Assembly (NCBI GenBank): GCA_039621445.1
Contig: CP154954.1
Location: 44,061,847-44,125,846, forward strand
Reading direction: 5' to 3'
DNA length: 64,000 nucleotides
DNA from: Euglena gracilis
Taxonomy: Eukaryota
This document shows, in pieces, positions 1 to 33,938 of the stretch; positions within the stretch are counted from its first letter, which is position 1; each line of letters opens with the position of its first letter. The notes below the pieces were generated by a model that was given only the letters and a program-made list of their open reading frames with translations, ran no database searches and was not told the origin of the DNA. The position numbers were made by a program, and so were the translations under genes.

Positions 1-94
1 CCCAGATTTTCTTCTTATTCATACAGACAAAAGTGCTTCAGTGAGGACTGTTTCTGACCTCAATTTCCTTCATTTTGGGTGTTTTCATGCCGTC

Positions 95-105
95 TTTTTT
101 TTTAG
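95..105 (+). promoter_or_regulatory. Probable splice acceptor (possibly spliced-leader trans-splicing) upstream of the ATG
   Basis: A poly-T tract plus AG (ttttttttt-ag) lies 7 nt before ATG 113. Euglenozoans trans-splice an SL onto such sites. Confidence 0.45.
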
Positions 106-112: not shown

Positions 113-3100
113 ATGGCAGCCCGGAAGCCCTTGGCGCCCACCCGCTCGGCGACGGAGCTGGTGTCGAAGACCCCGACCCCGCTGGCCCGTGTCCGGAGGG
201 GGTCTGGCGCTGGCTTACATGATTGCCGTCTGTGGAGGCAGTCTTTTTTTTTTACCGTACAACCGTACAAGCGAGGGTGCTTGACGGTTTCTCATTCCTG
301 GGTTGTTTTGGAAAGTGCAGGGGAAGTCACTCCTTTTTGGACGACACTCACTGAGTTTGTTTCAGTGTCATTCACGTCCTTTGGTTTCTACAGCTGTGCG
401 GGTTTCTGTGCAAACCGCTGAGGGTTGTGTTTGGCATACGCGTGGACCAGACATCCTGTGGTCCTGTCTGTTCAGAAGTTTCAGCTGAAACCCTGGAGAG
501 CCAGACAGCCTCCGCGCCTCGACGTGCTGGTGCTGGACGAGACCCTCACGCGAGGGCAGGTGCGGCGGGTCGAAAAGGCCCATGTCGACTCCCTCGTCAA
601 GGCGTTCACGGAGAACCCGCCGGTGGGGGCCCTGAGCTTCGTGGTGTGGCCGGAGCAGGGTGTGTGTTTTTTGTTTGCGTGTCTGTGCCTATCAGCATGT
701 GGGCCAGTCTGTCTGTATCCATGAATGTTGCAAATGGCGGATGCTTCCCAAACGACTGAATAATGAAATGTACCCCGTTTGTAGTGTTTTTTTTTTGGAA
801 GGGGGGGATGGTGGGGATCCAGGCGGGAATCTGTGCACCTGAAAAAATCTCAATTGCACTGTTCTTCTCTGTTGTCACAGCGACGGGGAAGTTCGTCATC
901 CTGAGCGGGCAGCACCGCTTCCTGGCGGCCACCCAGGTGGCAGACGCGGCGGTGGCCGACACGCGGCCGGCGCCGCAGTGGACCGAGTGGTTCAACTGCC
1001 ACACGGTGCTGGGGTCGGCCAGCCTCGAGGAGAGGCAGCGCGTGGCCGGGAGCATGCAAGCCCGGGACGGGACGGTGAGGGAGATGTCCCTCAGCCAGCG
1101 GGTGGAGTGGCTGGAGCGGGAGGTGGAGCGGGAGCGGCCGGGGGCGGTGCCGGACGGTGAGGCGGGGACCGCCGCCCGCCTGATGGTGAACCGGACGGAG
1201 CTGCTGAAGCGGGTGTACGTGAAGACGGGGTGCACGGAGGCGTCCCACGGCAAGATGGTGTGTGCGCGGATTTCCGTGTGCGTCGTTTTCTATTTGATAC
1301 AATGCACGGATTCCCGCCGAGACGGCCTGCCTCCTTTCTTTTTTCTTTTCAGAAGGAGAGTGCGCGCACGCTGTCCTTTGAAATTCCAGCCATCACATAC
1401 ACATCACTCACTCCCCCCCCCTTAATTCCCCCCCCCCTCCCCTCTCCCTCACCCGCTCTGTGCAGGACAACTGGGTGAAGGCGATGCAGCCGCTGGCGGA
1501 GTGGCTGCTGCACAGCGGGCGGCCGGTGGTGGAGGCGGTGCGGGCGCTGGAGGCGCGCCCCGCGACGGGGGTGGCGGCGGCGCTGTCCCCGTACGCGTTC
1601 AAGGCGATCGAGCAGCTGTACGACCCGCAGGACTACGTCGCCCTGACGAGGGAGATGCTGGACGAGGCGGCGAAGGCGACAACGGTGCGGCTGGGTCGGA
1701 TGTCCATTTCACTGTGTCTGTTGGAACTCTGCCTGCACTTTCACACAGACAGACGCACACACGCGCACGCACGCAAGGAAAGTATGATCATACGTGGACA
1801 GTTGAACCAGTTTTACTGTTCGAGTGGATACAGAGACAGTACGCGGTAAACCGCACACTACACAATGCGCGGTCAGGTGGAATGGGACGGGGGAGGAATG
1901 GCACTCCGCTGTCAAGGCGGTGGTGGGGACGCTGATCCGCCGCCGCACGTGGACGTGGCTGCTGATGCACCCGGACCTTCACCACGTCCACCCGACCCGC
2001 CGTATGTCTACTCTGTGCTGTCTTCCGCACTCTGTGTGCACACGTTTTCTTAAGGTTGTCATTTTCAGGCGGGTTTCCGTACAAACACTCCTGCACATGG
2101 AAGCGTGTGTAGTGTTGGGATTCTTTGCTGATGTCCCCGTTCTCGTGCTCAGGTACCCTGTCCATGGTGCCCAGCCTGGAGCAGAGCATGGACAGCGCGG
2201 ATATCAAGGTGCCGCTCAGCGGTACCAACTGGCGCTGGTCGGCCCAGCACCCGTGCGCAGGGCTATCCAGGACGTGTGTGCCTTTTTCCCTTTGGTTAGT
2301 TGCATGCGTAACTGCGTTTCACACATGGTTGTTTTACGCGGGAACCCGCCTGATTGGATGAGACGAAATATCTCAATTCGCATTAGAATGTTACTGAGTC
2401 CAATTTTTTGTTTTTGTACTGGCTAATGATTCTACTGTACTGTCGGAGGTTCGGGGTTGTCCTGAGGACGGCCACCGCGGGGAGCGGTCCTTCGCTCCCC
2501 CCTGTGGGGGACTGAGCGCTACGCCCCCCTGCGGGCGCGCCTGGCCCAGCCGCTCGCCGAGCCCACGGTGCGGTACGGGGGGCGCTTCTGCACCGTGGAC
2601 CTCAGCGGTGGCGGCGGTCGGCGCGGGGCGGCCACAGCGGCGGCCGGCAGCAGCCGGGAGGAGGCGGAGGGGTCCCCCAGTCAGCCCACGTCTGGGGAGG
2701 GGGAGCTGTTTGAGGCTGGCTCTCCGCGGGCGGGCACCCGGTCCACCAGGGGGCGAAGAAAGACGGCAGCGGCGGAGGGTGGGGAGAGTCCCGAGCCGTC
2801 CCGCCTGGCGCACGTGGTCCCCCTCCACCCCACCGCGGCGATGCCGCGGGAGATCATGGAGCTGAACGTCGACGCGGTGGTGGTGGAGGTCCCGGACGGG
2901 CTGAGCGACGCCGACGTCCATCCCGAGCTCCTGAGACTGTGGAGCCATGGGGTGCCGTTCGTGGCCACGGGGCGGGCGTTCGCCATCGGGGTGCTGCAGC
3001 AGACGCTGCAGAAGGGCATGGACGTCCCCGACGAGATGCGCCGTGTGGACGTCACACTTCACCGGCCGGTGAAGTCCAACGTGGACCGCACGTACCTGTT

Positions 3101-5161
3101 CAACGTCACCACCGTGACCGCCCTCTTCAGCAGCAGGACGGACTTTCGGGTGTGTATATCCTCCCCTCCGCTTTTTTTTTTGAACCCTCCTTCTTTTGGC
3201 GTACACGGGAATCCGCACAAGTGTCACACAACTGTTACACTCTGGTGCATATTGGGGTACTGTGCGCACAAAAGGTTTCTTGAGACTCATGCTGTGACAT
3301 TCTAAGATGATGAGAGGGGATGGGATGAGGTGAGATACAACGTGATGAGACCATCTTCGCCTTCCACTCGCAGGTCCCCCGGCAGATCACCCTCGTGGGA
3401 CAGGGTCAGGGCTTTGTTCACACAGAACAGAAACACAACCAGGCGCTCTTTTTTTTTTTAAAAAAAAAAGAAAACATACCACGTGACCACTGATCATCAT
3501 TTCAGGGAATTGGCAGCATCCTGTGTGTCAACCAGGATGTCAGTCCGTTGTCTGTGGTTTTCCTCTGCACGGATATCCGCACACTTCTGCATTCTGTTCC
3601 CTATGGTGAAAGAATGGCATTCAGTCCCACAGTGTGAATTCCCTTCTGGCCCCCATCCCCCCTCCCATGAGAAACTGCGCAGAGACGCAGCTCTGCGGGG
3701 GAGGGGCCGCCCACCCTGCCGGTGGAGGTGGCGTGGTGGCTGCTGGCGCGGCTGCACGTGGAGGCCCACGACTGGGTGCTGGCGGTCACCCGCCACGCCG
3801 CCCTCCCGGCGGACCTCGCCACCCGGCTGCAGGTACCCATCGGCGTGATCTGGGGGGACCCCGACCTGCTGGAGGAGGCGGACGAGGCGATGCAGCTGCG
3901 GGTGGACCAGCTGCAGCGCGAGATCAAGGTGGCCGACGGGAAGCCGGCCATCCTGTGGGATCAGGGCGCCACCCCGGTCCAGGCCAGACGAGGGGGGGGG
4001 GGACGTTTGCCCTTATCAACTCTGCGTGCGTGGGTCATTATTGCAGCATCAGAACGTGGCGGACAACGTGTACGCGGTTTCCCGCACACATTGCACGCGT
4101 GCGGTTTCCCGTGGGGAGGGGTGCTTAGCTTCTGCCATCTGGTTTCCCCACCTGAACTTTCCTGGGTGTTGGCCCCTGCGGCCATCAACGTCCACCACCG
4201 CATCACCCACCACGAGCCACTGGACGTCTCCGGCCGGGGCGGGCTGGAGGAGGAGGAGAAGAAGGGGGAGAAGGAAGAGGAGGACATGCCCCCCCGGCCA
4301 AAGAAGAAGGAGCCGGAGAAGAAGGGCCGGGAGCCCTCACCCCCGCCGCCAGCCAAGGGGCGGGGCAAGAAGGAGACCCCCGCCAAGGAGAAGGAGAAGG
4401 AGAAGGAGAAGGCCCCTGCCGCCAAGGGGAAGGAGAAGGGGAAGGAGAGGGCCCCTGCCGCGAAGGAGGCCGAGGCGCCGGTGACGCCGGCCAAGCAGCC
4501 GTCAGCCGGCGGCGCGGCGGCGGCGGGCCGCAAGGGGGCCTCCACCCCCTCCGGGCTGCGGAAGGGCGCGGCTGCACCGCCAGCGGCGCAGGAGCCGCCG
4601 GCGCCGGAGACCCCGGTGACGGGCCGCAAGCGCACGGCCCGCACGCCGCCGCCGACCGAGTCCGCCGCCGGTGAGCCGGAGGACGAGATTGAGGAGATCG
4701 TGCCACGACCGCCCCCGACACTGTCCCCCCTTCAGAGCCAGCTGTTTGCATCCTCCCATTCTGCTCTTTCAGCCTCTGAGTTTACAGCCATACGTGGTGG
4801 GCTTTGCACACGGGAAACCGCACACGTGCGTATTCAGGGACACCGCACACGTACAGAATGATACGTGCGTTGCACGGAAACCCGCACACAATCTCCCACG
4901 CTGTTTTTTTGGATTCAGGTGGTTTTGCAGTCACACTGCCTGTGTCCTTGCAAACTCTTGAAAGAGCTGATACCCTCTCTTCGTTATTGCTGTTCTGCTT
5001 GCAAATTGCACGGGAAACCGCACACAGCTTGCTGACTCATTGCACGCACACACCCCTCCTTCCTGTAATACACCACTTACACACCAAGTCCAAGGGGGGA
5101 GGGTCAGCTGAAGAAGAAGCCCACGCCGGCCGGGGCGCTGGAGGAGCTGCTCAACGTGTGA
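113..5161 (+). CDS. Spliced gene: ParB/Srx-like N-terminal domain, degenerate beta-class N6/N4-methyltransferase-like region, Lys/Pro/Ala-rich C-terminal tail
   Basis: ATG at 113 follows a poly-T/AG acceptor. Exons are approximately 113-201, 451-659, 881-1257, 1466-1684, 1877-2001, 2153-2273, 2449-3149, 3374-3404, 3691-3976, 4184-4699 and about 5089-5161 (TGA), joined mostly by GT-AG introns. The spliced N-terminus reads QVRRVEKAHVDSLVKAF...LSFVVWPEQATGKFVILSGQHRFLAA, a ParB/Srx pattern. Later segments read NVDAVVVEVPD and PTLPVEVAWWLLARLHVEAHDWVLAV...IGVIWGDP. Several joins need a 1-nt correction in homopolymer runs. Confidence 0.7.
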
Positions 5162-6477
5162 GCAGGAGCGCGGGCCGGCGGGGGCGGGCCGGGCCGGGCG
5201 GCGGGGCGGCTGCGCCGCCATCCTCATCCCCGACAGCGCCCACGAGTGGGCACGGCCGTGGGCGGCCGCTGAGCAGTTCTCTGCCCCTCCTGCGTGGACC
5301 GCCTGATGCTTTTTGGAACCTGGGACCGCCCGTTGCTTTTTTTGTGTCACACACCCTCCTCACACCCACTGTCCCCGGGACTGCCCAACGCCTTTCACCT
5401 TTCGACGGGAACTCAACCCCTGGACCACACTCCATCACCCCTCTCACCTGGGACCCACCGGCCGGACGCCCCAACCGCCGTGCTAGGTCCAGGGCGCACA
5501 TTCTGTCTCCCATTCAGTGGCCGGTGTCGTGTCCAACTTTGCCTTTGCGGATGTATGTATGGAGTGTGAATCCCTCTCTGAAGCATACCCCTCCCTGAGA
5601 TCACGCCGTGTGTGCCCTGGACCTGGATCACCCATGCGGCTGTCCGTTTGCCCCCTCTGTTTCTCTTTTTCCTCTGGACCGACCACAGAGACTTCGTCTC
5701 TCTCTTCTTCCCCCCCGGACCAAGGACCCCTCCAGGACCAGGACCAAGCTGCACGGTGATCCGCACACACACCCTCCCCCTCTCTCCCTCCTTCTGCTGT
5801 CGTTGCGCTTCGTGTGCTACCGCAGTCCCTGGCAGGCGGGCGGTGAGGGGGGGATGGGAGGAGGGCTGCCTTGGGTGAGGTGCCTCACTGGATGTCAGGT
5901 CCAGTTCTCAGCCAAACATCCCCAGGAGTTTCCCGTATGTTTTTGCACGGATAACCGCACAAGTTCGCTTTTAACCAGCCATAGTCACTCAGCCCCCTCT
6001 CGTAGCGTTAGCCCCTCACATATGGTTCATCTGTTGTGTGCGGTTTCCCGCCTAACAGACCATCTGCTAAAAATTAGGACATCCGTTCAGCAGTGGTGTT
6101 CGTTTCCCCCTCCCGTCACTGGTTGTTGGCACTCACCAGTCCTCCAAAAACGCGCGGGTTGCTTACGCGGGTGCCTCTCCCTCACAGGTCACCCCATGTC
6201 ACCCCCCTCCCGGAGGTGGGGTCCGGCGTCGTCGTGACACGGCCGGGGCTCTGACGGCCAGGTGTTCTCCGACCCCTTCTCCGTTTTCACATTTTCGGCC
6301 AGGTTACTGGGGGGTATTTCACAAAACCACCCCTTTTCAACCATTAATTTCTAAAACGGGTCACGTGTCAAAACAGTGGAAACAGACGGAAACCCGCACA
6401 CAATTTCTGGGTTGTATCAAGTGTCAGGAATTTCGGTCACGTTTCAGGGGGGTGGCTTACACGGGAACCCGCGCACC
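395..6477. repeat. Dispersed palindromic motif, consensus about (T/C)RCACGG-N4-CCGCACA, about 19 copies in both orientations
   Basis: Copies lie near 395, 821, 1261, 1303, 1840, 2068, 2335, 3203, 3566, 4071, 4097, 4807, 4871, 5007, 5750, 5944, 6035, 6386 and 6458, essentially all in introns or the 3' flank. The copies at 395 and 821 have one mismatched arm. Confidence 0.85.
3977..4183 (+). other. Nonconventional/intermediate intron (GTC-CAG ... CTG-CGGCC)
   Basis: CAG is at +4..+6 and CTG at -8..-6, with complementary ends (CAGGCCA / TTGGCC..CTG) and no AG acceptor. It is 207 nt, so the frame is kept, and it contains two of the intron-type CGG-N4-CCG motifs. Confidence 0.55.
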
Positions 6478-6533
6478 TGCAACGCCTAAAAAATGACAAA
6501 AAATTTGGGCAATTCGCGCCGCCTAAGTCTGGG

Positions 6534-6811
6534 CAGGGGCTTTTTTTAGACCAGAGGGGAGGGGGGGTCCCCTCGGGAGCCCCACCCACCCACCCCCAGG
6601 GGGGCCCCCTCGGGGGGGGGGGGGGTCCCGGGGGATCCACTCAACTTTCCCTGAAAATGGCACTTCTTTTAAAAATAGCACTTTTAAAAATTTTCCGCGC
6701 CTTCGGTGCCAAAAAGTATAACCCACTCCCCCCTGGGTGGACCCTGGGGGGGGGGGGGGCTCGACCGGCTTCCCCCCCCGGGGGGGTCCAAGACTAAAAA
6801 AAAAACCCCTG
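6534..6811. mobile_element. hAT-like MITE
   Basis: TIRs are CAGGGGCTTTTTTTA / TAAAAAAAAAACCCCTG. Flanks AGTCTGGG / CCTCTGGG match at 6/8, a degenerate 8-bp TSD. An internal GCGCCTTCGGTGCC motif is present. Confidence 0.65.
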
Positions 6812-7244
6812 CCTCTGGGTCCTTGATTTGACAGCTGGACTCCCCCCCCGGCGCATCAGAGAAGGCCAAAAGAAGTGCCCCATCTGGCGTCAGAGGGCAA
6901 AAAGTTTCGAAGAAAAAATGATGCGTCGCGGACTTTTTCCGTACGTTTTTCATGATGACAAATCGGAGCAAATGTAAATGTGCTCGAGAAAATGGTCCAA
7001 AATGCCGCACATGGCTAAAACAAGGGGAAATGGTATCTTTTGAGTTTTGAGGGAATGAGATTTCCGACCAAATGTAGATCCCCCCCTGAGGGTCTTGAAG
7101 TTCTGCTGAATAAAATGGGGGGACATTATATTTGTGCTTTGGGATTTGGGGGGTAAATATATTTTTGTCCATCCATCAATGACAAACATGGATGGTGCCA
7201 ATTTTGTTCCACATTCTTTCCTAACTTGGCAATGGCACTTCACC

Positions 7245-7632
7245 CCTTAAACCCCCCCACTTTTAACCCCCCCCCACTTACTAACCCCCCCCCCCACTTA
7301 CTAACCCCCCCCTCAGGCCGACCAACCAAACCGGGACTTATAAACCCCCCTTCGGGGAAGAAAAATGAAAGCCGCCGGGGACGATTTTTTCGGCCGCAAA
7401 CCACCCAAAAACTAATTTTTGGCCCTTTTTTGAGATCGACCATCATCAAAAATGCCATTTTTGACCAAATTTGCAAAAAAAAATTGCCAATTTGGGAGGT
7501 TATCAGGGTCATTTTTGGGGTTCGGATTTTCACCAACAATTCCGGGACTTACAACCCCCCCCCCACTTATAAACCCCCCCCTTCGGCCGACCAACCAAAC
7601 CGGATCCTACTAACCCCGGGGGGTTTATAAGT
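7245..7632 (+). mobile_element. Dispersed repeat family A (Helentron/HINE-like), copy 1
   Basis: Has the internal direct repeat CCGACCAACCAAACCGG, the core ACCATCATCAAAAATGCCATTTTTGACCAAATTTGC and a terminal palindrome AACCCC-GGGGTT. These are shared with copies at 11300, 14281, 24340 and 61793. Confidence 0.7.
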
Positions 7633-7678
7633 GTGGGGGGGGGGGGGTTAGACGCACTTTGCTTCTGTTGGCAATTAC

Positions 7679-9491
7679 GGGTGGTCATTCACGGGAGGTG
7701 GGGCGACCGTTGGTAGGGTCGCGGCAGGCCGCGGCCGACCGCGGCCCTACCAAAAAAATTTTTAGGTAGGGCCGCGGCATGCCGCAGCCCCACCCAAAAA
7801 TATTTTTGGAAGGGCCGCGGCCTGCCGCGGCCCCACCAAGCACCACCCAGCACAAAAGAATTTGGTGGGGTTGCGGCCGACCGCGGCCGGCCGCGACCCA
7901 ACCTAAGGCAACGTTTTGGTAGGGTCGCGGCCGACCGCAGTCGACCGCGGTCGGCCGTGACCCTACCTTGAAAAAAAAAATGGTTGGGCCACGGTTGACC
8001 GTGGCCGACCGCGACCCAACCTCCCGTGACCCTGAGGTCGTGGGTTCGATACCCACCTCGCATTCGAGAATGAACCTCGGGTTCCATACAAGCCTTTTTT
8101 AAGGGTCGGCTTTTGTTGTCAAAAACCACCATGTGGAATTTGGTCGTATCAGGGGGCGAATCACTTGTGTTACCAACTCCAAGGGGGGGCTGTGAGGGGG
8201 TGTTGGGCGTCTGGGGCGTGATAAATTGGCCCCTACAAGGTACCAGCTACCCCAAAGAGCCGCCCAACTAGGGTTAATACACATGGGGGGACCCTCGCTC
8301 GGCGCCTTCGGCGCCTCGCTCGGATCCCCCCACGTTTTTAACCTAGTTGGGCGGCTCTTTGGGTTCGCTGGTACCTTGTAGAGACCAATATAACAACGTT
8401 GAGCGGGAAATGTTCTGCTGTTTGGATGAGAATCGCAACCCTAACCCTACTCCTTCAAATAACCTCGTGAATTCTTTTTGGCCACAGTGAAACGCCATCA
8501 GGAAATCCTTTGCCAGTAATAAAAAAAAATAAAAAAAGGAAAAAACAAAAATAAAATAAAATAAAAAATAAAAAATAAAAAAAACGGTCACGTGAAATCA
8601 CGTGAAGTGGGGGGGGTATGGGGGGGGGGGCAGGTGGGTGGGGGGGTGTGGGTGGGGGTGGGGGAGGGTGGCGCGGGTGTGGGGGGGTTAGGGCGTGATA
8701 AATTGGCCCCTACAAGGTACCAGCTACCCCAAAGAGCCGCCCAACTAGGGTTAAAAACATGGGGGGACCCTCGCTCGGGTCCCCCCATGTGTATTAACCC
8801 TTGTTGGGCGGCTCTTTGGGTTCGCTGGGCACCTTGTAGAGACCAATCTAACAACGTTGAGCGGGAAATGTTCTGCTGTTTGGATAAGAATCGTAACCCT
8901 AACCCTACTCCTTCAAATAACCTCATGAATTCTTTTTGGCCACAGTGAAACGCCATCAGGAAATCCTTTTGACAATAATAATGGCAGGGGTGGAATCCAT
9001 TCTGCAGGAGGCGAAGGGTTTCCTGTGGGGATCTTTCGTCCCTAAAAGAGTATGGAGAGGAATTTACTTTTTAAATGCATATTTTTCATTGTACTGTTAT
9101 TTACAAGTACGCCATGGTTTTGGTATTATGTAGAGCCAATTACCAACTGCCACGGAGAGCGTATCACCGTGGGTATCAGAATAGCAGAAGGCGCAGGGAA
9201 CGAAGGTTGGATCGGTGGCTCGCAGAACAGTGTTCGGACAGTCATGGGAGGTGGGGTCGCGGTCGGCCGCGGCCGGCCGCGGCCGACCGCGACCCCACCA
9301 AAAAAAATTTTTGGTAGGGCCACGGCCGGCCGCGGCCCTACCAATTCAAAATTCTGAGAGCCAAAATTGGCTGTGGTGGGGTCGCGGTCGGCCGCGGCCC
9401 TACCAAAATCCTGTTTTGGTAGGTTGACGGCCGGCCGCGGCCGGCCGCGGCACCCACCTCCCACGAACCCACCTCCCGTGACATCCCACCC
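7679..9491. mobile_element. Mutator(MULE)-like non-autonomous element with a 9-bp TSD
   Basis: GGCAATTAC is perfectly duplicated at 7670-7678 and 9492-9500. The imperfect TIRs are GGGTGGTCATTCACGGGAGGTGGG / rc GGGTGGGATGTCACGGGAGGTGGG. GC-rich GCGGCCGACC subterminal repeats occur at both ends. Confidence 0.75.
8212..8970. repeat. Tandem duplication of a ~300-bp unit, each copy containing a ~150-170-bp hairpin
   Basis: Units at about 8212-8511 and 8690-8970 both run GGGCGTGATAAATTGGCCCCTACAAGG...CAGGAAATCCTTT with long self-complementary arms. A diverged reverse copy lies at about 45203-45810. Confidence 0.85.
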
Positions 9492-14500: not shown

Positions 14501-17500
14501 GCTTTGCGGCCGAAGAAAAATCGTCCCCGGCAGTTTCCATTTTTCTTCCCCAGGGGGGGGGGGGTTATAGATCCGGTTTGTTGTTGCCCGAGACCGAGAA
14601 AAGGGGGGGGTTATAAGTAGGGGGTGTGTTTTTGGGTTAGGGGGGGGGGTTATAGTGGGGTGGCGGGTTTTATGGGGGATTTTTAAATGGGGGGGGGGGT
14701 ATAAGTGGGGGGTGGGGTTCACAATATTGATAACAACCCACTAAAAAAAATTTGGTTTTTAAGTTTTTAACCTCCGCATTTTGCAACAAAGCCGAAGGTT
14801 GACCTTAAAACACAGAAACAGTGGGCATCCCACCAAAGTTAAGGGGTGTCTGAAACAAAAAAACCGGCCTCATTCAAACTGCCCAAAAGGTTGCCGAAAA
14901 CTGGGAACTCGGGAACATGGGGAGAAGGTTCGGGTCGCCCCAAAATTGGTTCAGAAAGCACGGTTTCTGGGGGGGGGGGGCAACGAGGTGACTAAAATCT
15001 CAAGGTGGGTGTGAAGGATTCCATTTGAAATTCCAATGGCAAAAAAGGACAAAATCGGACAAATTCCCAACAAATTTTCGGGGAGGAGTCCATATCAGTG
15101 AGCAGGTCTGTTCTGAAAACAAAGAAGCAAAACCATTCTCGTGTGTTGAACATAATGAACACAGCAAACCTTGGGAAGGCAACAGACCGTCCTCAAAACT
15201 ACTCAGCCATACATACCCTCCAAATAATGAGCAGTAGAGAGAGCAGAGTGCCCATTTGTTGGGACCATCCTTTTCCCTCTCAAACACCAAACTTTTTCCT
15301 CGGACGTCATTGAACCCAACTTTTTTGGACCGCCCAGTTCTTCGAGCGCTGCAAGGGACAAGGGCTGTGGGGGAGGTTAGTATGTCTGATGCACATATAT
15401 CAAATTCTGTAAAGCTTGTGGAAGCACTTTCAGAATTCGACTCCATGTCCCCAAAAAAAATATCTACAACCTTCCATCTGGGCAGGACTGAGACTGACTG
15501 AGATCCAGCAGTATTCCTTCCACTCTGTGGTTGCTGCAGTGCCAAGCAACCAAGTTGCCTGCCCAGAATTCCACACGTGTTCGTCACACTGGCACCGGCC
15601 TCGGCAGAGGTGGCCACACCGGAGGCCTTCGGGTTGGGGGAGCGGTAGACGCGGCGGACCCGGAAGCGGGTGCCCGGCGGGGCGAGGAACTCCTGCTCCG
15701 TCGGGAAGTCGGAGTAACGGGAGATGAGCTTGTAGGACTTCATCTTGGTGATGAGGATGCTGCCGGCCCCAGGGCGACCCCCCCCCCATCAGGCACTGGC
15801 TCTGTGCCTGCCCACGGCTGGAAGTGGTTTCCCAAAAATGACTGACTGCTTTCCCTGTGACCCCCCCCCCTCGAGGTCGGTGAGCAATCGCATGGGGGGG
15901 GGACCCCCCCGCCAATGACCACAGGTTCCAAAAGAAATCGCCTTTGTTTCCGTCGTTGACCGCAAGTTTGCCCGACACACACGACACCCCCCTCCCTCCC
16001 ACTCCCAGGTTGTTCAAAAGAAGCCTGCATGGGGGGGGGGGGGGGTCCGGCCTGTGGGTAAGTCCCGGTCCCACAAGAGGCCCTTGGCCAGTGGCAAAGA
16101 AGTAAATTGAAACAGCAGAGGAATGATATGATTGCATACAGTGAGTCTTGATTGTCTTGGAGTTTGCAAAAACATAACGGACAGGATGCCTACCCGGGCC
16201 GCCTCTCCTTGGACGCCGTGCAGGCCACCCATTCATCGAGGTCGAGGGTACAAACACATGAGTTTGATTTAGACGTATGGGAGAACGCAGAAAGACAAGC
16301 ACTGAAATGAGAGAAAATGAATTATGCAACCCCCTTCCTTGCAGAAGAGATGCACTTCATTCTCATGCTCCCTGAGCAATTTTGTGCTCCCAAACCGGGA
16401 GTGGTCTTTGACTTGGGGTGGCGGTGAACCCTCCAAAACACACCCCAGCTCTATTGTTTGGGTAAGTCCAATCAGGGTCTTATTTAAACGTATTGCCAGA
16501 AAAAATTGGGCAAAAAAGCCTTCCCTCGAGATGCACAAAAAAATAGGTCCAAGAAGCAGGAATTTCAACAACAAACAAAAATTGTTTAAAAAATGCCAAA
16601 TCCTATCTCATGGAAAGAAAGATAAAAAATGGGGGAAAATAGGGGGGAAAATCAAAAAATGACCCATTTCGGGCACTCACACTACCTTGGTGGGTCTGTT
16701 TTTGGGGGTTCTTCTACAAAAAAACCTCGAGAGGGTTTCCTTTGGGTCTCTTTGGAAGAGGAAACGACAGGGGTTGGGGGCTTGGTTTTGGATTCCAGTC
16801 CGACCCACGTCGCTTTAGGAACCAAGGGGGTGCTCTGGCAGCACTACACCCCACGGGAGTCGAAAGCGCCCTCCCCTGCCTGTCCAAAGCACAGAGAGCA
16901 GACCCTTGGGGAGGGGGGGGCTGCCCTCCACGTGTCTCCCTGGCCCCCGACCGTCGCTGAAGGAGGGGCCCCCCTGGCCCTCGTACCCGAAGGAGTGGGC
17001 GATGTACGCCGACAGGGAGGTGGAGGTGAAGTTCTCCAGCGAGATGGGCTCCCCCTCAACGTACTTGCTGCCCGCCCCCCACTGCCGGAGGGGTTCAGTC
17101 CCATCAAAGGCGGTGGATGGGTGGGGGGTGGGTTTGGATCAGGCTTTTGCAGAAAGACTCGGAGCGATTTGGCCAGCCACCAGAAAAGGGTCAATTAACT
17201 CTGAGCCAGACCACCCAGCTCACCAGACACTCCTCCCTGCGGTCCCGGGAGTCCCCCCAGGAGGTGGAAAAAAATTACACCTCGGTTCTGGGCATTGTTG
17301 GCACGTGTATGGAAAAAAAAATACCGACGTTTCGCGTCTGTCACCGGAAAAAAAAATACACTTGCTGACCCTATCAAATTTCCACTTGCCAAATTTGGAC
17401 TAGCTGCAGTCCAGCCCCCCCCCACCCCCGGGTGCTTCGCACAGAAGAGGGCACAGCATAGACTATATAGGATCATCTTTACATACATATCATATACAGA

Positions 17501-17501
17501 G

Positions 17502-17552
<51 letters not shown>

Positions 17553-17867
17553 CATATACATATACACATATACATATAATACATATACATACATACATAA
17601 TACAATACATATACATACATATACAATACATACTACATACATATACATATGCAGACATACATACATTACAATACATACAGACATACAACATACATACATA
17701 CATACATACATACATACATACATACATACATACATACATACAGACATACATACATACAGACATACAGACATACAGACTACATACATTACATACATACATA
17801 CATACATACATGCATACACACATACATACACACATACATACATACATACATACATACATACATGCAT

Positions 17868-17925
<58 letters not shown>

Positions 17926-18891
17926 CATCAGACACACACACACACACACACACATACATACATACATACACACATACATACATACATACATACATACATA
18001 CATACATACATACATACATACATACATACATACATACATACATACATACATACATACATACATACAGACATACATACATACATACATACATACATACATA
18101 CATACATACATACATACATACATACACACACACATACAAACACACACACACCATACATACATACATACATACATACATACATACATACATACATACATAC
18201 ATACATACATACATACATACATACATACATACATACATACATACATACATACATACATACATACATACATACATACATACATACATACATACATACATAC
18301 ATACATACATACATACATACATACATACATACATACATGCATGCATGCATGCATGCATGCATGCATGCATGCATGCATGCATGCATGCATGCATGCATGC
18401 ATACATACATACATACATACATACATACAGACATACATACATACATACATACATACATACATACATACATACATACATACATACATACATACATACATAC
18501 AGACATACATACATACATACATACATACAGACATACATACATACATACATACATACATACATACATACATACATACATACATACATACATACATACATAC
18601 ATACATACATACATACACACACACATACATACATACATACATACAATACATACATACATACAGACATACATACATACATACATACATACATACATACATA
18701 CATACATACATACATACATACATACATACATACATACATACATACATACATACATACATACATACATACATACATACATACATACATACATACATACATA
18801 CATACATACATACATACATACATACATACATACATACATACATACATACATACATACATACATACATACATACATACATACATACATACAT

Positions 18892-18973
<82 letters not shown>

Positions 18974-19876
18974 CATCAGACACACACACACACATACACA
19001 CGCACACACATACATACATACATACATACATACATACATACATACATACATACATACATACATACATACATACATACATACATACATACATACATACTTA
19101 CTTACATATATATATACATACATACATACCTACATACATACACATACATACATACATACATACATACATACATACATACATACATACATACATACATACA
19201 TACATACATACATACATACATACATACATACATACATACATACATACATACATACATACATACATACATAATACATACATACATACATACATACATACAT
19301 ACATACATACATACATACATACATACATACATACATACATACATACATACATACATACATACATACATACATACATACATACATACATACATACATACAT
19401 ACATACATACACATACATACATACATACATACATACATACATACATACATACATACATACATACACATATATACACATATATACATACATACATACATAC
19501 ATACATACATACATACATACATACATACATACATACATACATACATACACACACATACATACATACATACATACATACATACATACATACATACATACAT
19601 ACATACATACATACATACATACATACATACATACATACATACATACATACATACATACATACATACATACATACATACATACATACATACATACATACAT
19701 ACATACATACATACATACATACATACATACATACATACATACATACATACATACATACATACATACATACATACATACATACATACATACATACATACAT
19801 ACATACAGACAGACAGACATACATACATACATACATACAGACAGACAGACAGACAGACAGAGACAGACAGACAGAC

Positions 19877-19935
<59 letters not shown>

Positions 19936-22450
19936 TACATACATACATACATACATACAAACATACATACATACATACATACATACATACATACATACAT
20001 ACATACATACATACATACATACATACATGCATGCATACATACATGGATGCATGCATATGGCAAGTGTTAAGTTTGGTACCCCCCCCTTAAATGTTAAATT
20101 TAGTACCCCAGGTTGGCCACGGGGGTGTACCCTGGGGTTAGTGCAGGGCGTAGGGTTTGGGCCGGTTGGCCTGAGGTCGACCGCGCGCGCGCGACGCCTC
20201 CCTGGCCCGGGCCGCGCGATTCCCAAAGGCGGCAGACAGGCAGAGGGAAAGAAAGATAAAGCCTGCCGAATGGTTGCCCCTACAAGAGACTTCACCCTCC
20301 CTTTGCCTTTGGAGTGACTCTCAAAGGGGCTGGGGTTGGCAGGACGGGCAGTCAAGCCGGCAGTTAGGCCGCATGCTCAGGGCAAGGTGCACGTCGTGCG
20401 CATGCGGCCGACCTCAGGCCAACCGGTCCAAACCCTAACCCAACACCCTGCAGTAACCCCAAGGGACGCACCCGTGGCCAACCTGGGTCAAGTTTAGTAC
20501 CCCCTAGGGGGGGGGGGGGTATGGTGCAGCTGACGTTTTTTATTTCAGTGCTTGGAACTCTTGGTTTCACACCATCGTAACACTATTCAGCAGGAATTCT
20601 GACTTGCATTAAACATATATTTTACTTGTTAAATCCATTACACACATATGGCAAGCTTTAAGTTCAGTGCCATTGATGGACCTAACTTGGGCAGCTATTC
20701 TTGACATCAAATTTTTGCCATTTTGCAGATTTTTGGTCACTTTTGCTTTCATTTTGACCAGTGTTTACATAAATCTTTGCAAGTGTGACACAAATTTGGC
20801 CGATTTCGACAAAAAAAACTGGCTATTTTTGACAAAAAAAAAACGTGTCTGAGGGTGACAACGTTGGTGGTTCAACTGTGAATAGGTGACTGCCCGTGAA
20901 ACCTGCAATCGTTCACACCAACAAGTCCTTCAGAATCTGCTGAAATTGAGGTGAAACCGTGGTTCCCACTTGACCGAAATGACCTCGCCATTGTCCCGAT
21001 TAAAGACCTTTGCCCTGCAGCCAGGGGCTCGAAGTCCACACTGGGCCCGACGCCGCGGAACGACGCGGCCTGGATGTTGGTGGAGAAGTTGGCGAAGGGC
21101 GGGTCCAGGCTTCTTTTTGGCAACCCCGGGGGAGGGGGTACACTTTGGGTGACTGGCCAGGGAAGCAGGGCTGGTCACAAAAAGAAGAGGCTGTGATGGG
21201 GTGGACAGCCCACTCAAAGGGCGGGCTGCAACACGAACTCTCGAAAAACGCCACACAAAATAAACTAAGATAAAAAAAGCAAATAAACACAAAAAAAAAT
21301 GCAAAAAAAAGTTGCATGTAAAATCCTTCGGGATGTACGCTTTCTACTGGAGAGGACTTTAGCCACCTCCGCCAGGGATAACTCTTCATTTTACATAAAA
21401 TATGCTGTTTGTTGACCAAAAAATGCAAAAATGACAAAGAATGAGAAAAAAAAAATAAAATTTGGTCTCAGGGGGAAATTGGGGCTAAAATGAAAGGTTT
21501 TTCAAAATCAAAAAAAATCCAGCAAAAATTGAAAAATTGCCAAAAGGTGCAAAAAAAAAAATCAAAAAAAGCAACAAAAAAAACGCGATTGCATTCCCCC
21601 CCTGCTCAGCAGAAACTTCAGATCACCAATCATTTGCTTTTTAGGCGCAGGCCAGTACAATGGTCCCTTCAAATTTATCGTTTTTGCAACCTCACTCAAA
21701 ATTGTGAATGACTGGGCTGTTCAACCAAGTTTTGCTTTGTTTCGTGTTGTGTGTTGAGCTCTACAAATGATTGCCAACTTTCATCTTTCGATGAGAATAT
21801 TGCATACACCAAATACTTGGGCCAATTGCACAAAAAAAAAACTATAATTGTTTAACCTGACGCTCAAAACTATGGTGTGGTGGTTCGATGGCCAGGAACC
21901 TGAGAAAGGAGTTAGGACTTCCACAATTTGGATGCTCTAAAGCAGGTGTCCCCACGGCATAAGGGACACACCTGCCCAGCACGTGTGCTTGGGACCCTTC
22001 CAACGGCTGCCCCATCAACATCAAATGTTGCGGGAATGGATGGAAGGGATGGCGGGCGGGGGGGGATGTGCTGCAACGCAAAAAAAGTGCAAGTTGCACA
22101 TGAATTCTTTAGGAGCTCCCAGATGTGCATAGCTTCCTGCTAGAAAGGACTTTGGAAAATTTTCATCTCCTCCCATCCAGGGAGAATTTTCAGAATGCAA
22201 ACCTAGCACCTCCCCCCCCCCCCGGGACGTTGCTGTGGCTGGGTTGGCCAAAATTGGGGCTGGCCTGCAAACGGACGCGTGGGTGCGACCTTCCGAAGAA
22301 AAGCAGCCCAGGCGGGTCCACGAAACACGTGCCGGGCAGCTTGTTCAGCGCCACCATGAGCTGCTCGCTGAAGGGGCGCCAATTGGCAATCTCCGCGGCG
22401 TCGCGGGTGTAGAACGCCGCGTTCATCTTCTGGTAGATGGGTGTCTGCAG
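11576..22450 (-). CDS. R-S-E clade (ARTC / NAD:arginine-type) ADP-ribosyltransferase domain, split over about 7 exons
   Basis: In transcript order the exons read [19 protein letters not shown]...[16 protein letters not shown] (~22335-22450), SFRGV (R at 21055-21057), ENFTSTSLS (~17016-17024), [23 protein letters not shown] (EQE at 15690-15698) and [11 protein letters not shown] (last exon). Confidence 0.85.
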
Positions 22451-28400: not shown

Positions 28401-30661
28401 GTATGTATGTATGTATGTATGTATGTATGTATGTATGTATGTATGTATGTATGTATGTATGTATGTATGTATGTATGTATGTATGTATGTATGTATGTAT
28501 GTATGTATGTATGTATGTAGGTATGTATGTATGTATGTATGTATGTATGTATGTATGTATGTATGTATGTATGTATGTATGTATGTATGTATGTATGTAT
28601 GTATGTATGTATGTATGTATGTATGTATGTATGTATGTATGTATGTATGTATGTATGTATGTATGTATGTATGTATGTATGTATGTATGTATGTATGTAT
28701 GTATGTATGTATGTATGTATGTATGTATGTATGTATGTATGTATGTATGATGTATGTATGTATGTATGTATGTATGTATGTATGTATGTATGTATGTATG
28801 TATGTATGTATGTATTTATGTATGTATGTATGTATGTATGTATGTATGTATGTATGCATGTATGTATGTATGTATGTATGTATGTATGTATGTATGTATG
28901 TATGTATGTATGTATGTATGTATGTATGTATGTATGTATGTATGTATGTATGTATGTATGTATGTATGTATGTATGTATGTATGTATGTATGTATGTATG
29001 TATGTATGTATGTATGTATGTATGTATGTATGTATGTATGTAGTATGTATGTAGGTATGTATGTATGTATGTATGTATGTATGTATGTATGTATGTATGT
29101 ATGTATGTATGTATGTATGTATGTATGTATGTATGTATGTATGTATGTATGTATGTATGTATGTATGTATGTATGTAGGTATGTATGTATGTATGTATGT
29201 ATGTATGTATGTATGTATGTATGTATGTATGTATGTATGTATGTATGTAGGTATGTATGTATGTATGTATGTATGTATGTATGTATGTATGTATGTATGT
29301 ATGTATGTATGTATGTATGTATGTATGTATGTATGTATGTATGTATGTATGTATGTATGTATGTATGTATGTATGTATGTATGTATGTATGTATGTATGC
29401 ATGGATGGATGGATGTATGTATGGATGGATGTATGTATGTATGTATGTATGTATGTATGGATGTATGTATGGATATGGTAGTATGTATGTATGTAGGTAG
29501 GTAGGTATATATATATATGTAGGTGTATGTATGTATGTATGTATGTATGTATGTATGTATGTATGTATGTATGTATGTATGTATGTATGTATGTATGTAT
29601 GTATGTATGTATGTATGTATGTATGTATGTATGTATGTATGTATGTATGTATGTATGTATGGTATGTATGTATGTATGTATGTGTATGTATGTATGTATG
29701 TATGTATGTATGTATGTATGTATGTATGTATGTATGTATGTATGTATGTATGTATGTATGTATGTATGTATGTATGTATGTATGTATGTATGTATGTATG
29801 TATGTATGTATGTATGTATGTATGTATGTATGTATGTATGTATGTATGTATGTATGTATGTATGTATGTATGTATGTATGTATGTATGTATGTATGTATG
29901 TATGTATGTATGTATGTATGTATGTATGTATGTATGTATGTATGTATGTATGTATGTATGTATGTATGTATGTATGTATGTATGTATGTATGTATGTATG
30001 TATGTATGTATGTATGTATGTATGTATGTATGTATGTATGTATGTATGTATGTATGTATGTATGTATGTATGTATGTATGTATGTATGTATGTATGTATG
30101 TATGTATGTATGTATGTATGTATGTATTTATGTATGTATGTATGTATGTATGTATGTAGTATGTATGTATGTATGTATGTATGTATGTATGTATGTATGT
30201 ATGTATGTATGCATGTATGCATGTATGTATGTATGTATGTATGTATGTATGTATGTATGTATGTATGTATGTATGTATGTATGTATGTATGTATGTATGT
30301 ATGTATGTATGTATGTATGTATGTATGTATGTATGTATGTATGTATGTATGTATGTATGTATGTATGTATGTATGTATGTATGTGTATGTATGTATGTAT
30401 GTATGTATGTATGTATGTATGTATGTATGTATGTATGTATGTATGTATGTATGTATGTATGTATGTATGTATGTATGTATGTATGTATGTATGTATGTAT
30501 GTATGTATGTATGTATGTATGTATGTATGTATGTATGTATGTATGTATGTATGTATGTATGTATGTATGTATGTATGTATGTATGTATGTATGTATGTAT
30601 GTATGTATGTATGTATGTATGTATGTATGTATGTATGTATGTATGTATGTATGTATGTATG

Positions 30662-30692
<31 letters not shown>

Positions 30693-31412
30693 TGTATGTA
30701 TGTAGGTATGTATGTATGTATGTATGTATGTATGTATGTATGTATGTATGTATGCATGAATGCATGCGTGCATGCACGCATGTATGGATACATGAATGCA
30801 TGGATGTATGTATGTATGTATGTATGGATGGATGGATGGATGGATGTATGTATGTATGTATGTATGTATGTATGTATGTATGTATGTATGTATGTATGTA
30901 TGTATGTATGTATGTATGTATGTATGTATGTATGTATGTATGTATGTATGTATGTATGTATGTATGTATGTATGCATGCATGTATGTATGTATGTATGTA
31001 TGTATGTATGTATGTATGTATGTATGTATGTATGTATGTATGTATGTATGTATGTATGTATGTATGTATGTATGTATGTATGTACGTATGTATGTACGTA
31101 CGTACGTATGTATGTATGTATGTATGTATGTATGTATGTATGTATGTATGTATGTATGTATGTATGTATGTATGTATGTATGTATGTATGTATGTATGTA
31201 TGTATGTATGTATGTATGTATGTATGTATGTATGTATGTATGTATGTATGTATGTATGTATGTATGTATGTATGTATGTATGATGTATGTATGGATGTAT
31301 GTATGTATGTATGTATGTATGTATGTATGTATGTATGTATGTATGTATGTATGTATGTATGTATGTATGTATGTATGTATGTATGTATGTAGTATGTATG
31401 TATGTATGTATG

Positions 31413-31443
<31 letters not shown>

Positions 31444-33676: not shown

Positions 33677-33708
<32 letters not shown>

Positions 33709-33758
33709 TGTATGTATGTATGTATGTATGTATGTATGTATGTATGTATGTATGTATG

Positions 33759-33789
<31 letters not shown>

Positions 33790-33938
33790 GTATGTATGTA
33801 TGCATGCATGCATGTATGTATGTATGTATGTATGTATGTATGTATGTATGTAGTATGTATGTAGTATGTATGTATGTATGTATGTATGTATGTATGTATG
33901 TATGTATGTATGTATGTATGTATGTATGTGTATGTATG

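What the first reader, a model, noticed from the sequence alone, without database searches (positions are those of the whole stretch)
113..5161. Intron-containing ParB/Srx domain fused to an apparently inactivated beta-class DNA methyltransferase fold
Seen after splicing: a ParB-like core (QVR...HVDSLVKAF...FVILSGQHRFLAA). It is followed by NVDAVVVEVPD where motif IV (VDLVVTDPPY) would sit, and later by PTLPVEVAWWLL...DWVLAV...IGVIWGDP, resembling the P..L...LI....D.VLDPFxGxG...IGIE.D segment. That order is the circular permutation of beta-class N6/N4 MTases, but both DPPY and FxGxG are lost. Known: ParB-MTase fusions occur in phages and prokaryotic mobile elements. Inference: a horizontally acquired or element-borne gene domesticated with spliceosomal introns, with a pseudo-enzyme possibly kept for DNA binding. 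The basic K/P-rich tail could provide nuclear localisation or chromatin binding.
Basis: partly seen in the sequence, partly recalled or inferred. Interest (0 to 1): 0.75.

Follow-up and report, generated by a model that had tools for sequence, protein, structure and literature searches.

The report
ParB-like gene with private intron palindromes
This is an intact, many-copy, intron-rich gene of a Euglena-type genome whose protein starts with a bacterial ParB-type DNA-binding domain and whose introns all carry one short palindrome, while the proposed "dead methyltransferase" half finds no support.

Summary

**ParB half: supported.** Exons 2+3, joined in a script, match home-made ParB-superfamily profiles. 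hhalign gives P 6e-6 (combined profile) and 2.9e-5 (DndB/DGQHR type). 0 of 2000 shuffles reach the real hmmsearch score.

**Methyltransferase half: not supported.**
- The family profile against two beta-class MTase profiles gives probability at most 0.8%, while those two profiles find each other at 100%.
- The folded core resembles Alba-like domains (Z 8.0-8.5) more than any MTase (Z at most 6.3), both near background.
- The module keeps its own near-invariant His/Glu/His, so it does not look like a decayed enzyme.

**New here.**
- An 18-20-nt quasi-palindrome sits in every intron and the 3' flank: 20 of 21 window matches lie in 1263-6475, against 0.46 expected.
- One intron (2255-2469) is a Euglena nonconventional intron.
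- DNA runs hold many diverged copies.
- 38 unnamed metagenome relatives exist.

**Reading.** The best fit is a repeated-element gene like red-algal PAG3. This scan noted the same pairing twice before elsewhere in this genome (e1-7359102, e1-7335275).

The parts
113..235 (+). Possible exon 1 (ATG at 113). The 3' end is unresolved: 190 with a GT donor, or 235 with a nonconventional CAG..CTG intron to 476.
   Evidence: GC-rich open frame. No RNA joint and no homolog cover it.
476..659 (+). Exon 2: first half of the ParB-like core (..RGQVRR..HVDSLVKAF..).
   Evidence: Acceptor cag|AAG and donor AGG|gtgtgt. Contributes 2.5 bits alone and 14.4 bits together with exon 3.
881..1257 (+). Exon 3: second half of the ParB-like core (GKFVILSGQHRFLAA, the GxxR motif) plus a helical region.
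   Evidence: P0001 is 50% identical over the same exon borders. hhalign against DndB-like proteins aligns spliced residues 16-138.
1466..1701 (+). Exon 4 (helical middle region).
   Evidence: The 1702 donor and 1877 acceptor keep the frame. TTVRLGRM matches P0007 and P0017.
1877..2001 (+). Exon 5.
2153..2254 (+). Exon 6 (SLEQS..KVPLSGTNWRWSAQHP + T of the Trp codon).
   Evidence: Homologs carry this stretch joined to the next exon's stretch..
2255..2469 (+). Nonconventional (Euglena-type) intron: gcgCAG ... CTGaggac|G.
   Evidence: Fits N3-CDG..CH'G-N5|R (abstract of PMC12501133). Its removal gives AQHPWPPRGAVL, restoring the family's PWPP.
2470..3149 (+). Exon 7: conserved N-subdomain (PWPP..Y..R..GG.F.T.D), a low-complexity linker, and an alpha/beta core (LAHVV..VVVEV..DVH..GVP..).
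   Evidence: 38 relatives. Conservation counts. AF2 of relative P0010 gives pLDDT 85-95 over this part.
3374..3404 (+). Mini-exon 8 (VPRQITLVGQ).
   Evidence: In frame with 3150 and 3405 GT donors. P0010 and P0027 hold an equivalent stretch in one piece.
3672..3976 (+). Exon 9: second, less conserved alpha/beta segment (P.EV..W.L..L.V...WVL.V....G....G ... PAILWD).
   Evidence: Alignment A3 with P0010 and P0027. Donor at 3977. AF2 confidence is only 55-65.
4217..4699 (+). Exon 10: disordered E/P/K/A-rich tail with 39-nt imperfect repeats.
   Evidence: Composition E 17%, P 16%, K 16%, A 16%. Repeats D1. Junctions.
5108..5161 (+). Exon 11 and stop codon (..LKKKPTPAGALEELLNV*).
1262..6476 (.). 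17 good copies of the quasi-palindrome TTGCACGG-N4-CCGCACAC. They lie in introns 3, 4, 5, 6, 7, 8, 9 (two copies) and 10 (three copies), and in the 3' flank (5637-6476).
   Evidence: 21 matches of CGGNNNNCCGYRCA in 64 kb, 20 of them here, 0.46 expected. Positions by intron. The same family was found blind by the repeat finder.
395..837 (.). Degenerate copies of the same motif in intron 1 (395-413) and intron 2 (822-837).
   Evidence: Inverted-repeat pairs I9 and I24.

Best explanation
**Shown.**
- An intact gene of about 860-885 codons and 10-11 exons sits in a Euglena-type genome.
- Its N-terminus is a ParB/Srx-superfamily domain. Among the profiles tried, it is closest to the DGQHR (DndB-like) type.
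- The rest is a conserved, unnamed module followed by an E/P/K/A-rich tail.
- The gene belongs to a family with many diverged copies in related DNA runs and with 38 unnamed metagenome relatives.
- Every intron and 1.3 kb of the 3' flank carry one private 18-20-nt quasi-palindrome.

**Inferred.**
- The unit is, or derives from, a repeated mobile element.
- The ParB-like domain recognises the element's own palindromes, as ParB recognises parS and as proposed for PAG3 of red-algal Plavaka transposons.
- It thereby brings the C-terminal module, a possible enzyme or nucleic-acid binder with conserved His/Glu/His, and the basic tail onto the element's own DNA.
- The module is not a recognisable beta-class methyltransferase.
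For: **ParB homology.**
- hhalign gives probability 85.2%, P 6e-6 against the combined profile.
- It gives 73.8%, P 2.9e-5 over 113 columns against the DndB-like profile.
- hmmsearch gives 14.4 bits, and 0 of 2000 shuffles reach it.
- The Atlas lead pointed to phage ParB_N and DUF6551 clusters.

**Palindromes.**
- 20 of 21 window matches lie within 1263-6475, against 0.46 expected.
- Copies bearing the conserved flanks lie only in non-coding parts.
- The repeat finder found the same family blind.

**Many copies.** 791 and 1609 short contigs at 90-99% identity were laid on 6 kb, over exons and introns alike.

**Intact frame.** 858 codons, including a nonconventional intron that restores the conserved PWPP.

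**Family under constraint.** Counts; 38 relatives.

**Precedent.** PAG3 is described as a ParB-like N-terminus with inverted-repeat arrays beside the gene (bioRxiv 10.1101/2025.02.11.637652, passages read).
Against: **No mobile-element hallmarks seen.**
- No transposase, terminal repeat or target duplication was seen: 0 of 121 ORFs of 125 aa or more downstream have a Pfam hit.
- The left flank is outside the window.

**Limits of the ParB evidence.**
- It rests on home-made profiles.
- Curated libraries gave nothing on single exons.
- The fold of exon 3 alone failed (pLDDT 44).
- Canonical ParB and phage AGHGR-type profiles alone match weakly (5 and 38 of 2000 shuffles reach the score).

**Untested or unconfirmed.**
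- Binding of the protein to the motif is untested.
- Splice junctions lack RNA joints.
- Intron positions shared with relatives at 25-35% identity suggest an old gene, which fits a host gene as well as a mobile one.
Confidence: 0.5

Rival explanations
1. The gene descends from a phage or plasmid ParB-MTase fusion. The region encoded at 2800-3976 is a circularly permuted (beta-class) N6/N4 methyltransferase fold that lost DPPY and FxGxG and survives as a DNA-binding pseudo-enzyme.
For: - ParB-fused N6_N4 MTases are common in phages. 47 full-length fusions were fetched here, and passages of bioRxiv 10.1101/2025.10.10.680097 say the same.
- Eukaryotic MTases derived from phage ParB loci are known (PMC4738411 passages).
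- In the AF2 model the strand ending in the conserved Glu occupies the place of MTase strand 4.
- Some MTases align at Z 4.5-6.3, among them M.MboIIA at 4.9 and M.PvuII at 4.6.
Against: - That path has P 0.63.
- All family-versus-MTase comparisons give probability at most 0.8% and E at least 0.066, against 100% and E 1e-43 for the positive control.
- hmmsearch scores do not exceed shuffles.
- Alba-like folds fill the top 24 rows (Z 7.1-8.5), above every MTase.
- Foldseek found 0 matches at E 1e-3 or better.
- The distance from the ParB motif to the supposed motif IV is about 400 residues, against about 145 in real fusions.
- The module keeps its own near-invariant polar residues.
Confidence: 0.1
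2. An ordinary multi-copy host gene for a chromatin or nucleic-acid-binding protein. The intron motif has nothing to do with the protein. It would be a relic of introner-like insertions or a splicing or regulatory element of this gene family.
For: - Ten or more introns, with positions shared by distant relatives. 24 of 29 rows read V after the F[KR] border, as expected when translation reads through into a GT intron.
- No transposase in the window.
- Earlier notes of this scan report transposon-derived introns in this genome (e1-7363118 and others).
- A second shared intron motif, AGGCAGTC followed by a T-run, has 5 copies.
Against: - The motif also fills 1.3 kb beyond the stop codon and is nearly absent from the other 57 kb (1 match).
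- The introns share only the 20-nt motif, not whole-element similarity.
- Copies at 90-99% identity that include the introns look like recent bursts.
- The pairing of a ParB-type domain with a private palindrome recurs in other elements of this genome, according to unchecked notes e1-7359102 and e1-7335275.
Confidence: 0.25
3. A decaying, non-functional copy of a repeat family, so that neither the protein nor the motif does anything at this locus.
For: - RNA reads lie mostly at 90-99% identity, so they come from other copies (1 of 33 at 99% or more in X24).
- Exon 1 is unresolved.
Against: - 858 codons are open across ten exons.
- All junctions are usable.
- The conserved residues are kept.
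Confidence: 0.08

Closest known systems
PAG3, accessory gene 3 of red-algal Plavaka (and Zisupton or Mutator-like) DNA transposons (bioRxiv 10.1101/2025.02.11.637652; passages read)
   Same: - Eukaryotic, repeated-element context.
- N-terminal ParB-like DNA-binding domain that curated domain libraries do not detect.
- Arrays of short inverted repeats at the gene.
- A proposed role in binding its own element.
   Different: - PAG3's second domain is a putative 2OG oxygenase. Here it is an unnamed alpha/beta module with His/Glu/His.
- Here the repeats are scattered one or two per intron rather than in tandem beside the gene.
- No transposase or PAG1/PAG2 partner is seen in the window.
- No PAG3 sequence was held, so homology was not tested.
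DndB / DGQHR-domain proteins of bacterial phosphorothioation loci (Pfam PF14072; PMC4507180 passage)
   Same: Best-matching ParB-superfamily profile (hhalign P 2.9e-5). It shares the upstream Q-R motif and the GQHR motif on a hydrophobic strand.
   Different: - Ser replaces the Asp of DGQHR.
- Only the core of about 110 residues aligns. The extended alignment gives probability 22.8%.
- There is no dnd operon, and the gene is eukaryotic and spliced.
Phage ParB-N6_N4 methyltransferase fusions (47 fetched here)
   Same: A ParB-type N-terminal domain followed by a larger C-terminal module.
   Different: - The ParB part matches this subtype weakly (38 of 2000 shuffles reach the score).
- The C-terminal module shows no detectable MTase similarity.
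Alba / Sso10b / Rpp20-Rpp25 / SpoVS fold (IF3-C-like beta-alpha-beta-alpha-beta-beta)
   Same: The confident core of the module (P0010 residues 182-271) aligns over 80-85 of 86-91 residues at Z 8.0-8.5.
   Different: - Z is at the level the tool calls common background.
- There is no sequence similarity.
- The core carries extra strands and conserved His/Glu/His, which these matches do not account for.
Earlier notes of this scan: Euglenid transposons with a ParB-fold protein and private palindromes (e1-7359102, e1-7335275)
   Same: Same genome and the same pairing: a ParB-type protein with its own short palindrome in almost every non-coding stretch.
   Different: - No word-level sequence likeness to this gene.
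- Those notes report DDE transposases, and none is seen here.
- Their claims were not re-checked here.

Membership tests
ParB/Srx superfamily (ParB_N-type domain) | GxxR (Box II / P motif) directly after a hydrophobic strand, followed by an Ala-rich helix | tested here: met
   KFVILSGQHRFLAA in the window, identical in P0001.
ParB/Srx superfamily (ParB_N-type domain) | Significant profile similarity over the whole core of about 100 residues | tested here: met
   Home-made profiles give hhalign P 6e-6 and 2.9e-5, hmmsearch 14.4 bits, and 0 of 2000 shuffles reaching it. Pfam's own model could be run only on single exons, with 0 hits.
ParB/Srx superfamily (ParB_N-type domain) | ParB/Srx fold | tested here: inconclusive
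   AF2 of exon 3 alone gave pLDDT 44. The spliced domain could not be handed to the fold tool.
ParB/Srx superfamily (ParB_N-type domain) | NTP (CTP/ATP) binding or DNA binding | not testable with these tools
   Needs biochemistry.
DndB / DGQHR domain (PF14072) | DGQHR motif | tested here: not met
   SGQHR in the window and in P0001. 27 of 27 fetched reference proteins have DGQ[HQ]R.
DndB / DGQHR domain (PF14072) | Similarity over the full DndB length | tested here: inconclusive
   The core aligns at P 2.9e-5. The extended alignment gives P 9e-4 and probability 22.8%.
Beta-class N6/N4 DNA methyltransferase (PF01555) | Motif IV (D/N/S)PP(Y/F/W) | tested here: not met
   The window has VVVEVPD. 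The family column is Glu in 26 of 28 rows. 47 of 47 reference fusions were chosen for having the motif.
Beta-class N6/N4 DNA methyltransferase (PF01555) | Motif I FxGxG | tested here: not met
   Absent from the window, P0010 and P0027 in the aligned segment.
Beta-class N6/N4 DNA methyltransferase (PF01555) | Profile similarity to the family | tested here: not met
   Probability at most 0.8% and E at least 0.066 against two MTase profiles that match each other at 100%, E 1e-43. Pfam found 0 hits.
Beta-class N6/N4 DNA methyltransferase (PF01555) | Class I MTase fold (seven-stranded sheet) | tested here: inconclusive
   MTases score Z 4.5-6.3, below Alba-like rows. The second half of the model has pLDDT of only 55-65.
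PAG3-like transposon accessory protein | ParB-like N-terminus plus arrays of inverted repeats at the gene | tested here: met
PAG3-like transposon accessory protein | 2OG-oxygenase-like second domain | tested here: inconclusive
   No such match appeared in the fold or family searches. No PAG3 sequence was at hand.
PAG3-like transposon accessory protein | Lies in a transposon with a transposase | tested here: inconclusive
   0 of 121 downstream ORFs have a Pfam hit. The upstream side is outside the window.
Euglenid nonconventional intron | 5'-N3-CDG ... CH'G-N5-6|R signature with complementary D/H' | tested here: met
   Intron 2255-2469 reads gcgCAG...CTGaggac|G, and its product restores PWPP. 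The signature is taken from the PMC12501133 abstract.
Alba superfamily | Beta-alpha-beta-alpha-beta-beta fold match clearly above background | tested here: inconclusive
   Z 8.0-8.5 over nearly the full domain, but at the tool's stated background level.

The most novel reading that the evidence does not exclude
A eukaryotic counterpart of the ParB/parS pair.

- The protein would load, perhaps as an NTP-gated clamp, on about 19 private palindromes spread through its own introns and 3' flank.
- This would mark or gather all copies of the element in the nucleus.
- It would deliver there a so far undescribed His/Glu/His alpha/beta enzyme or binding module.
- The family is spread through uncultured protists: 38 unnamed relatives.
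- Placing the sites in introns would keep them on the DNA and pre-mRNA but out of the mature message.
Probability: 0.3. Interest if true: 0.8.

Novelty: new variant of a known kind. Interest (0 to 1): 0.5.

Why it matters
**The question it opens.** Bacterial ParB proteins find their own DNA through short palindromes. Whether eukaryotic mobile elements reuse that trick has so far only been proposed, in one red-algal preprint and in two unchecked notes of this scan.

**What this locus offers.**
- An intact, testable example with a defined motif.
- A defined ParB-like domain.
- A conserved partner module of unknown activity.

**What it corrects.**
- The tempting "dead methyltransferase" label is not supported.
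- A Euglena nonconventional intron can masquerade as a frameshift.

Tried and rejected
**Curated libraries.**
- Pfam, PHROGs, NCBIfam and PADLOC on single exons and relatives gave nothing significant.
- PDB sequence search with A1 and A2 gave nothing.
- tblastn of exon 3 against phages gave no match.

**Homolog searches.**
- Word-indexed search with exon 3: 'longer' found none, 'near' found one hit, P0001.
- The metagenome-contig scan with A1 found no relative.
- Rac-prophage ParB as a seed returned only near-identical E. coli prophage copies, useless as a diverse reference.
- PF02195 was not found in 4 large viral records.

**Folds.**
- AF2 of exon 3 alone gave pLDDT 44 and was not searched.
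- The BFVD fold search gave no match below E 1e-3; its best row is 1.0e-03, with TM-scores 0.12 and 0.05.

**Window and genome.**
- No second copy of the gene in the window.
- No whole genome is held.
- Rfam and tRNA scans of the window were empty.
- The first motif pattern, with a 5-nt spacer, gave 0 matches because the spacer is 4 nt.

**Splice junctions.**
- A canonical GT(2253)/AG(2466) junction was rejected because it shifts the frame.
- The GC donor at 2234 was rejected because it deletes the conserved W.W.

**Variants in the motifs.**
- Of the 40 listed variants between runs, none lies in the 15 good motif copies within the laid 6 kb.
- Only 40 of 163 variants were shown, so this is no test.

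**Literature.** Searches for Euglena + ParB + transposon found 2 irrelevant papers.

Full report
**What is in the sequence.** Positions 113-5161 hold GC-rich (66-75%) coding blocks separated by T-rich stretches.
- I enumerated splice sites and used relatives as guides.
- The resulting model has exons 476-659, 881-1257, 1466-1701, 1877-2001, 2153-2254, 2470-3149, 3374-3404, 3672-3976, 4217-4699 and 5108-5161.
- It reads 858 codons to the TGA at 5159-5161 with no internal stop.
- Eight introns are GT-AG.

**The exon 6/7 junction.** It cannot be made with GT-AG without a frameshift.
- Relatives carry this stretch in one piece as W.W...PWPP..AVL.
- The published Euglena nonconventional-intron signature is N3-CDG...CH'G-N5-6|R (abstract of PMC12501133).
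- Intron 2255-2469 (gcgCAG...CTGaggac|G) fits that signature.
- Its removal yields AQHPWPPRGAVL, rebuilding the conserved Trp codon from T|GG.
- This agrees with earlier notes of this scan that the genome is Euglena. I did not identify the organism independently.

**Exon 1 and RNA support.**
- Exon 1 (ATG at 113) may end at 190 or 235. This is open.
- In run X24, 33 reads lie mainly in exon bins. Depth is 2.4-2.9 over 2601-3200, against 0.14-0.16 over 3201-3600 and 0.01 over 4001-4200.
- Most of those reads are 90-99% identical, and no joints were listed. X21 gave 11 reads.

**Copy number and relatives.**
- Two runs, labelled DNA by the tool's guess, laid 791 and 1609 short contigs at 90-99% identity on these 6 kb, over exons and introns alike.
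- That is far more distinct pieces than one locus needs, so many diverged copies exist. The summed depth is not a copy number, as the tool itself warns.
- The window holds no second copy.
- A full HMMER scan with exon 7 found 38 proteins at E 1e-3 or better, 6 of them at 1e-10 or better.
- The 10 proteins that I looked up (9 of these hits plus P0001) are unnamed ENA, JGI or Logan metagenome ORFs on contigs of 1-6 kb.
- In 24 of the 29 rows that reach the end of the exon 7 domain, the next residue is Val. This is expected when a gene caller reads on into a GT intron, so this intron position is old.
- P0010 and P0027 run on in one piece through the equivalents of exons 8 and 9.
- P0001 matches exon 3 at 50% identity with the same borders.

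**The ParB half.**
- Curated libraries see nothing on single exons. That is unsurprising, because the domain is split by intron 2.
- I joined exons 2 and 3 inside a script and built reference profiles from sequences fetched independently of the window:

| Reference set | Sequences | Source calls |
|---|---|---|
| Phage ParB_N proteins | 88 | 68, 69 |
| Canonical ParB | 28 | 78 |
| DndB-like (DGQHR) proteins | 27 | 77, 80 |

- Results against each profile:

| Profile | hhalign probability | hhalign P | hmmsearch bits | Shuffles reaching the real score |
|---|---|---|---|---|
| DndB-like | 73.8% (113 columns) | 2.9e-5 | 6.9 | 0 of 2000 |
| Combined | 85.2% | 6e-6 | 14.4 (best shuffle 9.6) | 0 of 2000 |
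| Canonical ParB | 2.1% | 0.023 | 5.0 | 5 of 2000 |
| Phage AGHGR subtype | 1.6% | 0.031 | 1.5 | 38 of 2000 |

- Against the combined profile, exon 2 alone scores 2.5 bits and exon 3 alone 8.1 bits, so both halves contribute.
- The alignment puts the window's RGQVRR on the Q-R motif and SGQHR on DGQHR.
- Beyond the core the match fades: probability 22.8%.
- The protein-language-model atlas had pointed the same way, to phage clusters of which some carry ParB_N or DUF6551. This is a lead only.
- A fold of exon 3 alone failed (pLDDT 44).
- I therefore accept a ParB/Srx-superfamily domain, DGQHR-like in flavour. I do not accept membership of DndB proper, because Ser stands in place of the Asp.

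**The methyltransferase half.** I assembled two true references: 34 YhdJ-like beta-class MTases and the MTase parts of 47 phage ParB-MTase fusions. In those fusions GxxR lies near residue 55, DPPY near 200 and FxGxG near 350-450.
- The two references find each other at 100% probability, E 1e-43.
- The family profile, taken whole or in four pieces, reaches at most 0.8% probability (E 0.066-0.94).
- hmmsearch scores for the window, P0010 and P0027 do not beat shuffles.

**The fold of the module.**
- AlphaFold2 of P0010 with 40 rows is confident over residues 30-270 (pLDDT 85-95) and weak over 275-375 (55-65).
- Foldseek against the PDB gives no match at E 1e-3 or better.
- The exhaustive aligner puts Alba-like domains first (Z 8.0, 76 residues) and MTases at Z 4.5-6.3.
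- In the second look, the top 24 rows are all Alba, Rpp20/25 or SpoVS at Z 7.1-8.5, covering 80-85 of 86-91 residues.
- The tool states that Z of 7-8 is a typical best score for models without a true match. Neither fold is therefore established.
- The strand ending in the conserved Glu does sit where MTase strand 4 would.

**The module is strongly constrained.**

| Conserved residue | Count |
|---|---|
| His | 29/31 |
| Glu | 26/28 |
| His | 22/29 |
| Gly-Gly | 29/32 and 28/32 |
| Tyr | 32/33 |
| Arg | 32/33 |
| Pro-Pro | 29/29 and 25/29 |

Polar invariants at strand ends suggest a working ligand or catalytic site of unknown kind rather than a dead enzyme.

**The palindromes.**
- While reading the introns I saw one motif recur. 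CGGNNNNCCGYRCA has 21 matches in the 64 kb, 20 of them within 1263-6475, against 0.46 expected and a maximum of 3 in 100 shuffles.
- With its flanks the unit is TTGCACGG-N4(A/T-rich)-CCGCACAC, a quasi-palindrome.
- The flanked copies lie in introns 3, 4, 5, 6, 7, 8, 9 (two) and 10 (three), and five or six lie in the 1.3 kb after the stop.
- The six bare CGG-N4-CCG hits in exons lack the flanks.
- The repeat finder recovered the same family blind and added degenerate copies in introns 1 and 2.
- From about 6500 on, the DNA turns into unrelated small repeats.
- None of the 121 ORFs of 125 aa or more in the rest of the window has a Pfam domain. So no transposase is seen here, and the left side of the unit is outside the window.

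**Comparison with what is known.**
- After I had seen the motif, the scan's notebook showed two earlier, unchecked notes on other parts of this genome. They describe transposons that pair a ParB-fold protein with a private palindrome in almost every non-coding stretch (e1-7359102, e1-7335275).
- By word look-up they are not sequence look-alikes of this gene.
- Those notes named a preprint, of which I read passages. It reports three things:
  - Red-algal Plavaka transposons carry PAG3, with an HHpred-level ParB-like N-terminus and a putative 2OG oxygenase.
  - Inverted-repeat arrays lie beside PAG3.
  - A separate PAG2 carries PF01555 plus SET.
- Other passages show that phage ParB-fold proteins are often fused to N6_N4 MTases and to DUF6551 (bioRxiv 10.1101/2025.10.10.680097).
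- Some eukaryotic MTases derive from phage ParB loci (PMC4738411).
- My search for Euglena + ParB + transposon found nothing relevant in print.

**Verdict.**
- The ParB-like observation is real. The MTase interpretation is not supported.
- The most likely reading is a repeated-element gene whose ParB-like domain recognises the element's own intron-borne palindromes. This part is inferred, not shown.
- It is a new variant of a kind proposed in 2025, and the scan has met that kind before in this genome.

Noticed in passing
window 27958-38110; 17480-20044; 55902-56730; 40791-40945: Very long microsatellites: (ATGT)n of about 10 kb (2545 copies, 97% matches), (TACA)n of 2.6 kb, (TG)n of 0.8 kb, and (CACAA)n.
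   Followed up: no
window 87-104, 236-253, 657-674, 779-796, 3441-3458: A second shared non-coding motif, AGGCAGTC followed by a run of about 10 T. It occurs in the 5' leader and in introns 1, 2 and 8 of the same gene (family D6).
   Followed up: no
window 6500-9000: Directly after the last palindrome the DNA becomes a patchwork of small repeats with long G or C runs. Two near-identical units of about 250 nt lie at about 8215-8500 and 8693-8960. A tRNA-like arm lies at about 8030-8060, which ARAGORN does not call.
   Followed up: partly
A2 alignment columns (window exon 7, 2470-3149): The unnamed C-terminal module has near-invariant His (29/31), Glu (26/28) and His (22/29) at predicted strand ends. 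It also has Y, R, GG and PP. This looks like a ligand or metal site of an undescribed domain.
   Followed up: partly
window 4368-4481: The tail is built partly of imperfect 39-nt repeats encoding KEKEKEK/APAAKGK units (family D1).
   Followed up: no
window 23895-24046: Tandem repeat of a 79-nt unit, 1.9 copies, 93% matches.
   Followed up: no
window 39336-39884 (-), 42514-42894 (-), 57584-57880 (-), 63253-63492 (-): High-GC3 open frames that look like exons of other genes, some coiled-coil-like and one with a KCPKCRH stretch. None has a Pfam hit.
   Followed up: partly
L158, L165, L175, L179, L181, L187 (IMG/VR contigs): Several phage contigs carry two ParB-MTase genes in tandem about 1.4 kb apart.
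   Followed up: no
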